From NCBI RefSeq assembly GCF_056712565.1, contig NZ_CM160072.1: a DNA stretch of 64,000 bases, one strand, 5' to 3'. Position numbers and translations under genes: made by a program. Under the pieces are notes generated by a model, which had not been told where the DNA came from, ran no database searches, and saw nothing but the letters and a program-made list of their open reading frames with translations. Below are positions 6,478 to 38,556 of the stretch, piece by piece (the stretch's first letter is position 1; each line of letters opens with the position of its first letter).

Positions 6478-8019
<1,542 letters not shown>

Positions 8020-8104: not shown

Positions 8105-8180
8105 GTCCCCTTCGTCTAGAGGCCCAGGACACCGCCCTTTCACGGCGGTAACAGGGGTTCGAATCCCCTAGGGGACGCCA
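8105..8180 (+). tRNA. gltV: tRNA-Glu (UUC) in 16S-23S spacer
   Basis: 76-nt sequence GTCCCCTTCGTCTAGAGGCCCAGGACACCGCCCTTTCACGGCGGTAACAGGGGTTCGAATCCCCTAGGGGACGCCA matches E. coli tRNA-Glu2 with encoded CCA. Confidence 0.95.
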
Positions 8181-8373
8181 CTTGCTGGTTTGTGAGTGAA
8201 AGTCACCTGCCTTAATATCTCAAAACTCATCTTCGGGTGATGTTTGAGATATTTGCTCTTTAAAAATCTGGATCAAGCTGAAAATTGAAACACTGAACAA
8301 CGAGAGTTGTTCGTGAGTCTCTCAAATTTTCGCAACACGATGATGAATCGCAAGAAACATCTTCGGGTTGTGA

Positions 8374-11276
<2,903 letters not shown>

Positions 11277-11370
11277 TACAACGCCGAAGATGTTTTGGCG
11301 GATGAGAGAAGATTTTCAGCCTGATACAGATTAGATTAACCGGCGACAAGCGGGTTAATGAAACAGAATT

Positions 11371-11490
11371 TGCCTGGCGGCCTTAGCGCGGTGGTCCCAC
11401 CTGACCCCATGCCGAACTCAGAAGTGAAACGCCGTAGCGCCGATGGTAGTGTGGGGTCTCCCCATGCGAGAGTAGGGAACTGCCAGGCAT
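11371..11490 (+). rRNA. rrfE: 5S ribosomal RNA
   Basis: 120-nt sequence TGCCTGGCGGCC...GGGAACTGCCAGGCAT matching E. coli 5S rRNA. Confidence 0.95.
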
Positions 11491-11502
11491 CAAATTAGAA
11501 AA

Positions 11503-11530
11503 ACCCCGGTCAATAAGGCCGGGGTTTTTT
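11503..11530 (+). terminator. rho-independent terminator of rRNA operon
   Basis: GC stem CCCCGGTC...GGCCGGGG followed by a T-run directly after 5S. Confidence 0.8.
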
Positions 11531-11564
11531 GCATATCAATTATTTGCATGATGAAGGGAATCTC

Positions 11565-11948
11565 ATGTCAGTTCTGTATATCCAAATTCGTCGTAATCAA
11601 ATTACTGTTCGCGATCTTGAAAGCAAACGTGAAGTGTCAGGAGATGCTGCCTTCAGTAACCAGCGCCTGTTAATCGCCAATTTCTTTGTTGCAGAAAAAG
11701 TTCTGCAAGATCTTGTTCTGCAACTCCACCCACGTTCAACCTGGCATTCTTTTTTGCCAGCAAAACGTATGGATATTGTTGTGAGCGCGCTGGAAATGAA
11801 TGAGGGCGGTTTGTCACAGGTTGAGGAACGCATTCTTCATGAAGTGGTCGCAGGGGCAACGTTAATGAAATATCGCCAGTTCCACATCCATGCGCAATCA
11901 GTGGTACTCAGTGATAGTGCGGTCCTGGCAATGTTTAAGCAGAAATAA
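11565..11948 (+). CDS. yjaA: stress-response protein YjaA
   Basis: 127-aa product from internal Met (MSVLYIQIRRNQ...) of ORF 11529-11948; position between rrnE and yjaB as in K-12. Confidence 0.8.
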   Translation: MSVLYIQIRRNQITVRDLESKREVSGDAAFSNQRLLIANFFVAEKVLQDLVLQLHPRSTWHSFLPAKRMDIVVSALEMNEGGLSQVEERILHEVVAGATLMKYRQFHIHAQSVVLSDSAVLAMFKQK

Positions 11949-12011
11949 TCATGTCACCATTGGTGGGTACGAAACCTAAAGTTCAGCCCACCGGGATGAG
12001 AAAAAAACCGC

Positions 12012-12455
12012 CTACACCCCCACATATGCCAGATTCAGCAATGGATACGGTTTCCCCAAATCGTCCACCTCAGAGCGTCCCGTAACCTTAAAACCCACCT
12101 TCTTATAGAACCCAACCGCCTGCTCATTTTGCTCATTAACATTGGTTGTCAGTTCCGGGGCCATTGAGAGCGCATGCTTCACCAGCATCCGACCCACGCC
12201 GCAGCCGCGCACATCAGGATCGATAAACAGCGCATCCATATGCTGCCCACTTAACAACATAAACCCAACCGGCCGATCCCGCTCATTAACCGCGACCCAC
12301 AACGGTGCTTCCGGCAGAAAGGAATGCACCAGCTCTTCCAGCTCGGCCCGATACTCTGCTGATAAAAAATCGTGAGTGGCATCGACAGAACGACACCAAA
12401 TCGCAACGAGTTCCTCCCCCTCCTCATGCCGTGAGCGTCGAATACTAATAACCAT
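12012..12455 (-). CDS. yjaB: GNAT family N-acetyltransferase YjaB
   Basis: 147-aa ORF with acetyl-CoA binding motif (RGCGVGRMLVKHAL); K-12 synteny. Confidence 0.85.
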   Translation of the reverse strand: MVISIRRSRHEEGEELVAIWCRSVDATHDFLSAEYRAELEELVHSFLPEAPLWVAVNERDRPVGFMLLSGQHMDALFIDPDVRGCGVGRMLVKHALSMAPELTTNVNEQNEQAVGFYKKVGFKVTGRSEVDDLGKPYPLLNLAYVGV

Positions 12456-18534: not shown

Positions 18535-19359
18535 TCAGCGTATTCCACCGTACGACAGCGTCACTTCCTTCGCCGCTTTAATCACCATCGCGCCAAACTC
18601 GGTCACGCGGTCATCGGTAATACGTGAAATCGGCCCGGAAATTGAAATTGCGGCAAACGGTTCGCGGTGCTCATCGAAAATACACGCTGCAAGGCAACGC
18701 AGCCCCAGCGCATGTTCCTCATCGTCAAATGAATAACCCCGTTTGCGCGTTTGGGCGAGATCTTCTTTTAAATGCACAGGAGACACCAGCGTCGCGTGGG
18801 TATAGGCATGTAACCCTTTGCGGTGCAGCAGCTTCGTCACCTGTTCTTCGCTCAGTTGGGCCAGAAAGGCTTTACCCGCACCGGAAGCGTGCATCGGCAA
18901 TTTACCGCCGATAGGCGCGGACATACGCATCAGGTGAGTACACTGTACCTGGTCGATAATAATCGCTTCGTGATTGCTTTGATCAAGCACCGCCATATTG
19001 ACCGTTTCGCCAGACTCTTCCATTAGATTGCGCAGGATAGGGTGAACAATCGCTAACAAATTACGGCTCTGGAGAAAGCTGCTACCGACCATAAAGGCGT
19101 GTGCGCCGATTGCCCAGTGACCCAGTTCGCCGACCTGACGGACAAAGCCCTGTTGCTGCATCGTGGTTAGCAGGCGGTGGGTCGTGGAATTGGGTAACCC
19201 GGCTTGCTGTGCCAGTTCCGTGAGTGCCACACTGCCATTGGATTCGGCAATCCACTCCAGTAATTTCAGGCCACGCGTTAAAGACTGAACCTGTCCAGTC
19301 GCTGGTGCGGTGGCAACGGCGGGTTTTCTGCCGCGTTTTGCGGGAATGGGTGCGACCAT
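18535..19359 (-). CDS. iclR: glyoxylate shunt transcriptional repressor IclR
   Basis: 274-aa product from MVAPIPAKRGRKPA within ORF 18535-19419; IclR-type HTH and effector domain. Confidence 0.9.
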   Translation of the reverse strand: MVAPIPAKRGRKPAVATAPATGQVQSLTRGLKLLEWIAESNGSVALTELAQQAGLPNSTTHRLLTTMQQQGFVRQVGELGHWAIGAHAFMVGSSFLQSRNLLAIVHPILRNLMEESGETVNMAVLDQSNHEAIIIDQVQCTHLMRMSAPIGGKLPMHASGAGKAFLAQLSEEQVTKLLHRKGLHAYTHATLVSPVHLKEDLAQTRKRGYSFDDEEHALGLRCLAACIFDEHREPFAAISISGPISRITDDRVTEFGAMVIKAAKEVTLSYGGIR

Positions 19360-35904: not shown

Positions 35905-36165
35905 ATCCATTTTCAGCCTTGGCACAAGGGAAGAGCGGAAGACGGGTGGGCGCAGAGCGATACTTCGCTACTATTTTCACCCAGAAGTGCTCCACCACTT
36001 GCGAAACGCCCGACTGCGAACGCTTCTGGTGACAACCCAGGGGATTCAGCCCCTGTAGCCGATGATGAACGTAGCCAGCCGTTCAATCACCTCGGCGATG
36101 CACCCCCTCAGGTGTTATCACAGGACTGGCTCCTCCAACACCGTTACTTGGGCAACGCGCCTCTT
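35905..36165 (-). promoter_or_regulatory. lysine riboswitch (L-box) in lysC 5' leader
   Basis: Long untranslated leader upstream of lysC; reverse complement reads as the lysC leader sequence I recall from K-12 (…GAGGCGCGTTGCCCAAGTAACGGTG…GGGTGAAAATAGTAGCGAAGTATCGC…). Confidence 0.8.
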
Positions 36166-36409
36166 CTGGCCTGCGCTAGCGCAGGTAGTACATTTATAAA
36201 TAAAGGGTGAGCGGGGCGGTTGTCAACGATGGGGTCATGCGGATTTTTCATCCACTCCTGGCGGTCAGTAGTTCAGCTAATAAATGCTTCGCTGCGCTAA
36301 GGGTTTACACTCAACATTACGCTAACGGCACTAAAACCATCACATTTTTCTGTGACTGGCGCTACAATCTTCCAAAGTCACAATTCTCAAAATCAGAAGA
36401 GTATTGCTA

Positions 36410-38066: not shown

Positions 38067-38160
38067 CGATATGTAGGCCGGATAAGGCGTTCACGCCGCA
38101 TCCGGCAACCGATGCCTGATGCGACGCGGTCGCGTCTTATCAGGCCTACAGGTCGATGCC
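38067..38160. repeat. BIME/REP cluster downstream of pgi
   Basis: GTAGGCCGGATAAGGCGTTCACGCCGCATCCGGCA and GCCTGATGCGACGCGGTCGCGTCTTATCAGGCCTAC. Confidence 0.8.
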
Positions 38161-38215
38161 GATATGTACATCGTATTCGGCAATTAATACATAGTACGAT
38201 TGATTAAATAGCCTT

Positions 38216-38250
38216 AAAAACAATGCCGACTATAAGTCGGCATTGTTTTA
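38216..38250 (+). terminator. rho-independent terminator after pgi
   Basis: Perfect hairpin AAAACAATGCCGACT-ATAA-GTCGGCATTGTTTT. Confidence 0.75.
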
Positions 38251-38556
38251 TCAGATAAATCCTCTTGTCTGTCATTTAACGAAAATCATACCGTGAGGTT
38301 AATCCTAAAATAAATTTTTAATCGTGGTTTATTTCGGAAAATACGCAGAGTAATTACTTTTTATTTTATTTTAACTTCATGATTTTTAATCTTATTTATA
38401 TATAAGTCAAAGCTTATATTTGATATTCATTCCAATTGTCCTAAAACTCCATCACTAATTCCCCGCGCCGTAATTCGCATGCTTTAGTTGTGTATACTCG
38501 ATCCCGCCCGAAATGTTTTGGGTAAATCTCCATTCATTCAATGAAGGGAAATTGTT

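What the first reader, a model, noticed from the sequence alone, without database searches (positions are those of the whole stretch)
11371..11490. 5S rRNA carries a loop-A variant (GGCCTTAGCG) relative to the canonical E. coli 5S sequence
The 5S gene reads TGCCTGGCGGCCTTAGCGCGG, whereas the canonical E. coli 5S sequence as I recall it has GGCCGTAGCG at this position (T instead of G at about position 13). Microheterogeneity among rrf copies is known, so this is probably an operon-specific allele, but it is a visible difference.
Basis: partly seen in the sequence, partly recalled or inferred. Interest (0 to 1): 0.15.

Follow-up and report, generated by a model that had tools for sequence, protein, structure and literature searches.

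The report
Common natural 5S rRNA allele (U13)
The single-base difference in this 5S ribosomal RNA gene is real, but it is the most common natural version of the gene in E. coli; the lab strain K-12, which supplies the "canonical" sequence, is the one that lacks it.

Summary
The 120-nt 5S gene at 11371-11490 has T at position 13 (window 11383), where four K-12 copies have G. Position 13 lies in unpaired loop A.

The interpretation as an operon-specific allele is not supported.
- The window is the rrnE operon of the E. coli type strain ATCC 11775. Six of that genome's eight rrf genes carry T13 (rrfA, B, C, D, E, G). rrfH has G13 and rrfF has A12-G13.
- Across 5,426 complete E. coli genomes, T13 is the commonest rrf allele: 18,885 of 43,429 copies (43.5%), in 4,173 genomes (77%). 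G13 has 14,289 copies and A12-G13 has 9,962.
- T13 scores slightly higher than G13 against the Rfam 5S model (93.2 vs 92.8 bits) and does not change the energy of the canonical fold.
- The same 5' segment occurs in Serratia, Yersinia, Trabulsiella and a Pantoea-like symbiont.

Best reading: a neutral or near-neutral polymorphism at an exposed junction base, spread among rrn operons by gene conversion. This is ordinary and already known in kind. The 23S-5S spacer hairpin variant just upstream is rarer (9.5% of genomes).

The parts
11371..11490 (+). rrfE, the 120-nt 5S rRNA gene, U13 allele
   Evidence: Rfam RF00001 at 93.2 bits. 119/120 identical to K-12 rrfC/D/G/H and 118/120 to K-12 rrfE. 100% identical to rrfA, C, D and G of the same genome.
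11383..11383 (+). The variant base: T (U13 in the RNA), in loop A, the three-way junction
   Evidence: It aligns to an unpaired junction column of the Rfam model. The energy of the canonical structure is the same for U13, G13, A13 and C13. In MG1655, G13 is one of the two most glyoxal-reactive guanines in vivo (PMC5733565).
11278..11370 (+). 23S-5S spacer; it carries a hairpin variant at about 11335-11359 (AUUAACC...GGUUAAU)
   Evidence: This spacer type occurs in 514 of 5,426 genomes at 2,674 places. The spacer-to-T13 junction query hits 2,422 places.
8374..11277 (+). 23S rRNA gene of the same operon (rrlE)
   Evidence: Rfam RF02541 at 2870.8 bits.
8105..8180 (+). Spacer tRNA-Glu(UUC), the gltV equivalent
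   Evidence: ARAGORN; Rfam tRNA hit.
6478..8019 (+). 16S rRNA gene (rrsE)
   Evidence: Rfam RF00177 at 1575.9 bits.
11498..11530 (+). Operon terminator: a 14-bp hairpin followed by a U-run. It is rrnE-specific and nearly identical to the sequence downstream of K-12 rrfE.
   Evidence: Fold of -22.5 kcal/mol, z = -5.6. Flank comparison. The simple terminator scan reported no site here.

Best explanation
This is the ordinary rrfE 5S rRNA gene of the E. coli type strain, carrying the U13 allele. U13 is a natural and probably neutral or near-neutral polymorphism at an unpaired, solvent-exposed base of loop A.

U13 is the commonest 5S allele in E. coli and the majority allele in this genome (6 of 8 copies). 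Its presence in many rrn operons is best explained by gene conversion (concerted evolution) between operons. K-12, which supplies the textbook sequence, belongs to the minority of genomes that lack it.

Shown here: the base, its structural position, its frequency, its distribution among operons, and its neutrality for model score and canonical fold energy. Inferred: neutrality for ribosome function, and gene conversion as the mechanism of spread.
For: Locus identity:
- The window matches NZ_CP033092.2 (ATCC 11775) at 100%, with yjaA and yjaB downstream, which is the rrnE position.

This genome:
- All eight rrf copies were located by synteny and aligned.
- T13 is in rrfE, A, C, D and G, which are identical to one another, and in rrfB, which also has T22C.
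- rrfH has G13. rrfF has A12-G13 plus C3T and G117A.

Species level:
- Allele-specific 39-mers, in which every possible 28-mer seed must span positions 12-28, gave T13 18,885 places in 4,173 genomes, G13 14,289 in 4,295, and A12 9,962 in 5,321, out of 43,429 rrf places.
- At rrfE specifically, about half of genomes have T13: 19 of 39 evenly spaced rows.
- K-12 has 0 of 8.

Tolerance of the change:
- Rfam scores are T13 93.2, G13 92.8 and A12-G13 90.4 bits.
- The canonical-structure energy is -41.6 kcal/mol for every position-12/13 allele.
- G13 is strongly glyoxal-reactive in vivo, so it is unpaired and exposed (PMC5733565).

Gene conversion:
- In the type strain the six T13 copies share the same upstream spacer type (sequences nearly identical), while the downstream terminators stay operon-specific and match their K-12 counterparts.

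Other taxa:
- The same T13 segment occurs in five other Enterobacterales species representatives.
Against: No functional data on U13 versus G13 were found or generated. Equal Rfam score and equal nearest-neighbour energy do not capture tertiary or protein contacts in loop A.

The unconstrained ViennaRNA ensemble differs somewhat between alleles: the probability that position 13 is paired is 0.27 for U13 and 0.66 for G13. However, the free-RNA MFE structures are not the native fold.

The uneven distribution among lineages (K-12-like genomes 0-1 copies, O157:H7 7 copies) could come from drift plus conversion, but selection would also produce it.
Confidence: 0.9

Rival explanations
1. Operon-specific allele: T13 marks rrnE and distinguishes it from the other rrf copies of this genome.
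For: Operon-specific rrf differences do exist. rrfF carries C3T, A12 and G117A in both K-12 and the type strain, and K-12 rrfA has C92T.
Against: Six of the eight copies in this genome have T13, and five of them are identical over all 120 nt. Genomes that carry T13 have a median of 5 copies.
Confidence: 0.02
2. Sequencing or assembly error in this record.
For: None. Single-base errors in collapsed rRNA repeats do occur in general.
Against: The identical allele occurs at 18,885 places in 4,173 independent complete genomes, and also in other genera.
Confidence: 0.01
3. Functionally distinct 5S variant: U13 and G13 ribosomes differ subtly, for example in uL18 or uL5 assembly or in 5S-23S signalling, and the polymorphism is maintained or driven by selection as a form of ribosome heterogeneity.
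For: rRNA sequence variants can matter. The rrsH 16S variants alter stress responses (PMC6312700), and K-12 operons differ in in-vitro activity (PMC11046459). Loop A conformation responds to polyamine binding (PMC1976436). Three alleles coexist at high frequency across the species.
Against: The site is unpaired, exposed and variable across bacteria: the Rfam consensus is A, and neither G nor U. Genomes range from 0 to at least 7 T13 copies without evident constraint. The operon studies above did not attribute any effect to 5S; PMC11046459 kept 5S constant in its combination constructs.
Confidence: 0.06

Closest known systems
E. coli K-12 MG1655 rrfC/rrfD/rrfG/rrfH (the textbook 5S sequence, C12-G13)
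   Same: 120 nt with 119/120 identical. Same secondary structure, same position at the 3' end of an rrn operon, and essentially the same Rfam score (92.8 vs 93.2 bits).
   Different: G instead of U at position 13. K-12 has no U13 copy at all.
E. coli K-12 rrfE, the orthologous locus (A12-G13 allele)
   Same: Same chromosomal locus: tRNA-Glu spacer, then 5S, a nearly identical terminator, and yjaA/yjaB.
   Different: Differs at positions 12 and 13 (AG vs CU) and in the 23S-5S spacer hairpin.
The U13 form of E. coli 5S RNA reported in the original RNA sequencing of strain MRE600 (Brownlee, Sanger & Barrell 1967-68).
   Same: As I recall it, MRE600 5S RNA was a G/U mixture at position 13 and a K-12 strain was a C/A mixture at position 12. 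The C12/A12 split in K-12 is confirmed here.
   Different: The link could not be checked. The papers are not held and the MRE600 accession I tried, NZ_CP014197.1, is not in the genome collection.
5S rRNA genes of Serratia sp. DD3, Yersinia massiliensis, Trabulsiella odontotermitis, the Plautia stali type-B symbiont and Escherichia sp. MOD1-EC7003
   Same: They carry the same CCTGGCGGCCTTAGCGCGGTGGTCCCACCTGA segment with T13.
   Different: They differ from the window at 1-5 other positions (35, 76, 87, 88, 97, 99, 107, 108), so T13 sits on several 5S backgrounds.

Membership tests
Bacterial 5S rRNA (Rfam RF00001) | Covariance-model score above the curated gathering threshold over the full model | tested here: met
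   93.2 bits against a threshold of 38, model positions 1-120 of 120.
Bacterial 5S rRNA (Rfam RF00001) | Three-way junction fold (helices I-V) with base pairs intact | tested here: met
   The textbook helices evaluate to -41.6 kcal/mol, the same as the K-12 alleles. The only non-standard pair is G72-A104, present in all alleles. The Rfam alignment has posterior probability of about 1.0 throughout.
Bacterial 5S rRNA (Rfam RF00001) | Position at the 3' end of an rrn operon, after 23S and before a terminator | tested here: met
   16S, tRNA-Glu, 23S, then 5S, followed by a terminator hairpin with a U-run.
rrnE operon of E. coli | Flanking synteny (yjaA and yjaB downstream) and a tRNA-Glu spacer | tested here: met
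   The terminator is nearly identical to the one after K-12 rrfE.
   T13 is in 6 of 8 copies of the type strain.
Rare or atypical 5S variant of E. coli | Minority frequency among E. coli rrf genes | tested here: not met
   T13 has 18,885 of 43,429 copies (43.5%), more than G13 (14,289) or A12 (9,962).
Historical MRE600 U13 5S form | Identity with the U13 species described from MRE600 RNA | not testable with these tools
   The original papers are not in the library, and the MRE600 accession tried is not in the collection.

The most novel reading that the evidence does not exclude
U13, G13 and A12 5S rRNAs are not equivalent. The three-allele polymorphism in loop A, with very different copy numbers among lineages (0 of 8 in K-12, 6 of 8 in the B2 type strain, 7 of 8 in O157:H7), would reflect lineage-specific tuning of 5S assembly or of 5S-23S communication. 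That would be a natural case of 5S-based ribosome heterogeneity.
Probability: 0.04. Interest if true: 0.4.

Novelty: already known. Interest (0 to 1): 0.05.

Why it matters
It matters little biologically. The value is a caution about reference bias. The "canonical" E. coli 5S sequence comes from K-12, which lacks the allele that is commonest in the species, so differences from K-12 in rRNA genes should not be read as anomalies. The data also give a clean small example of concerted evolution: the same 5S allele, behind the same spacer type, sits in six operons whose downstream terminators remain operon-specific.

Tried and rejected
- **Sequencing error:** rejected on population counts.
- **Operon-specific allele:** rejected after locating all eight rrf copies of the type strain by synteny.
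- **T13 simply travels with the unusual upstream spacer hairpin:** rejected. The spacer type is in only 514 genomes at 2,674 places, and only 2,422 of the 18,885 T13 copies sit at its junction. T13 is therefore much more widespread than that spacer.
- **Literature check of the 1967-68 report of G/U heterogeneity at position 13 in MRE600:** four searches and several look-ups found nothing usable. The MRE600 genome paper compares only 16S between strains.
- **Direct check of the MRE600 genome:** failed, because accession NZ_CP014197.1 is not in the collection.
- **Species-representative scan:** it did not return E. coli itself, probably because the window's own genome is withheld. It therefore gave no information on the other copies of this genome.
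- **Simple terminator scan:** it reported no site for the rrnE terminator. Folding showed the hairpin clearly.
- **My first regex for 5S extraction:** it used a wrong gap length and returned nothing. This was fixed.

Full report
**Observation.** Window 11371-11490 (+) is a 120-nt 5S rRNA gene that begins TGCCTGGCGGCCTTAGCGCGG. Position 13 (window 11383) is T. Rfam RF00001 matches it at 93.2 bits against a gathering score of 38, over the whole model. It is the only 5S gene in the window. The gene lies at the end of a complete rrn operon: 16S at 6478-8019, tRNA-Glu(UUC) at 8105-8180, and 23S at 8374-11277. A strong hairpin with a U-run follows at about 11498-11530 (-22.5 kcal/mol, z = -5.6).

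**Where the window comes from.** The stretch 11278-12400 is 100% identical to E. coli DSM 30083 = ATCC 11775, the type strain (NZ_CP033092.2). yjaA and yjaB lie immediately downstream, which is the rrnE position. K-12 has the same arrangement at rrfE.

**Comparison with K-12.** All eight MG1655 rrf genes were fetched and aligned.

| K-12 genes | Positions 12-13 | Other changes |
|---|---|---|
| rrfC, D, G, H | C12-G13 | none |
| rrfE, B | A12-G13 | none |
| rrfA | A12-G13 | C92T |
| rrfF | A12-G13 | C3T and G117A (a compensated pair in helix I) |

No K-12 copy has T13. K-12 varies at positions 3, 12, 92 and 117, which agrees with the "4 positions in the 5S rRNA" reported for K-12 in PMC6312700.

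**The other copies in this genome.** I located all seven rrn operons of the type strain by synteny and aligned the eight rrf genes.

| Type-strain genes | Allele |
|---|---|
| rrfE (window), A, C, D, G | T13, identical over all 120 nt |
| rrfB | T13 plus T22C |
| rrfH | C12-G13 |
| rrfF | A12-G13 plus C3T and G117A, the same allele as K-12 rrfF |

T13 is thus in 6 of 8 copies, so it is the majority allele of this genome and not an rrnE-specific one. The T22C change in rrfB converts the U22·G61 wobble pair of helix II into C-G and makes the canonical structure 1.9 kcal/mol more stable. An independent check used a chimeric query made of the allele-specific 39-mer plus the unique yjaA flank. It gave 5 places in the type strain and 1 in K-12. 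That fits, because rrfB's T22C prevents a 28-mer seed.

**Frequency in the species.** I used 39-nt queries covering 5S positions 1-39. Any 28-mer megablast seed within them must span positions 12-28, so each query counts only its own allele.

| Allele | Places | Genomes (of 5,426) | Median copies per carrying genome |
|---|---|---|---|
| T13 | 18,885 | 4,173 | 5 |
| C12-G13 | 14,289 | 4,295 | 3 |
| A12-G13 | 9,962 | 5,321 | 1 |

These sum to 43,136 of the 43,429 rrf places found with the whole gene. T13 is therefore the plurality allele of E. coli, with 43.5% of copies and 77% of genomes. At rrfE itself, 19 of 39 evenly spaced rows of the ranking had the T13 39-mer joined to the yjaB/yjaA flank, so roughly half of genomes have T13 there. 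In the same sample, K-12-like genomes (yjaA flank about 96.3-96.4% identical to the window) had 0-1 T13 copies and O157:H7 had 7. The allele-free state thus looks concentrated in the K-12-like lineage. That last point is an inference from a small sample.

**Beyond E. coli.** An exact 32-mer including T13 was found in species-representative genomes of Trabulsiella odontotermitis, a Plautia stali symbiont, Serratia sp. DD3 (six contigs), Escherichia sp. MOD1-EC7003 and Yersinia massiliensis. Those 5S genes differ from the window at 1-5 other positions. T13 therefore sits on several backgrounds, which fits a freely variable site.

**Structure and likely effect.** In the Rfam alignment, position 13 falls in a multiloop (junction) column whose consensus is A. 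Neither G nor U is the consensus. The bit scores are T13 93.2, G13 92.8 and A12-G13 90.4. The textbook helices evaluate to -41.6 kcal/mol for U13, G13, A13, C13 and A12G13 alike. In-vivo glyoxal probing of MG1655 found G13 to be one of the two most reactive guanines of 5S rRNA and placed it in loop A (PMC5733565). Its Watson-Crick face is therefore free in the cell. Neighbouring loop-A bases C11, C12 and A15 remain cross-linkable by a spermine probe even in 50S subunits and 70S complexes (PMC1976436). All of this points to a tolerant, exposed position. That U13 is functionally neutral remains an inference, because no direct comparison was found.

**How it spread.** In the type strain the six T13 genes share the same type of 23S-5S spacer, with nearly identical sequence. 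Their downstream terminators differ from operon to operon and match their K-12 counterparts. This is the expected footprint of gene conversion between rrn operons. [quoted passage not shown] T13 is not tied to that spacer, however. The spacer type occurs in only 514 genomes at 2,674 places, and a query spanning its junction with T13 hits 2,422 places. About 87% of T13 copies therefore lie behind other spacers.

**History.** From memory, the original RNA sequencing of E. coli 5S RNA (Brownlee, Sanger & Barrell, 1967-68) already reported a G/U mixture at position 13 in strain MRE600 and a C/A mixture at position 12 in a K-12 strain. The K-12 C12/A12 split is confirmed here. I could not verify the MRE600 part. 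The papers are not in the library, the MRE600 genome paper compares only 16S between strains, and the accession I tried is not in the collection.

**Verdict.** The finding is a real single-base difference from K-12, in loop A, in an otherwise ordinary and intact 5S rRNA gene. It is the commonest natural allele of the species and the majority allele of this genome, and it is already known in kind. Interest is very low. Its main use is as a reminder that K-12 is not the species consensus.

Noticed in passing
window 11335-11359, within the 23S-5S spacer 11278-11370: The spacer hairpin just upstream of 5S has a stem (AUUAACC/GGUUAAU) quite different from K-12's (AUCAGA/UCUGAU), and type-strain rrfH has a third type. 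All three fold into an equivalent hairpin of -11 to -12 kcal/mol at the same place. The window's type is in only 514 of 5,426 E. coli genomes (Nissle 1917, CFT073 and ATCC 25922 among them), so it is rarer than the T13 allele.
   Followed up: partly
L018 23214-23333 (-), rrfB of the type strain: rrfB carries T13 plus an extra T22C. This turns the U22·G61 wobble pair of helix II into C-G and makes the canonical structure 1.9 kcal/mol more stable.
   Followed up: partly
window ~11565-11950 (yjaA), downstream of rrfE: yjaA is present in only about half of complete E. coli genomes: 2,584 of 5,426 cover at least 80% of the rrfE-yjaA-yjaB query, and the rest match only 5S and yjaB. From my own knowledge, yjaA is a marker used in Clermont phylogroup typing.
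   Followed up: no
window 8258-8366 (+): Rfam StyR-44 hit (122.9 bits) in the tRNA-Glu to 23S spacer of the operon.
   Followed up: no
window 35977-36173 (-): Lysine riboswitch (99.5 bits), at the distance from rrnE expected for the lysC leader.
   Followed up: no
window 38076-38146, 45895-45965, 50124-50194, 50215-50285 (+), and 38212-38361 (-): Four naRNA4 hits (as I recall, REP-like repeats) and one STnc430 sRNA hit.
   Followed up: no
L023 15265-17822, downstream of rrfG in the type strain: Two frameshifted IS transposase pseudogenes (IS1397-like and IS110 family) are inserted between rrfG and kgtP. They are absent at this site in K-12.
   Followed up: no
K-12 and type-strain rrfF (L005 424-543, L021 8790-8909): rrfF, the second 5S gene of rrnD, keeps the same distinctive allele in both strains: C3T with compensating G117A, plus A12. 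Unlike the other copies, it appears to escape homogenisation.
   Followed up: no
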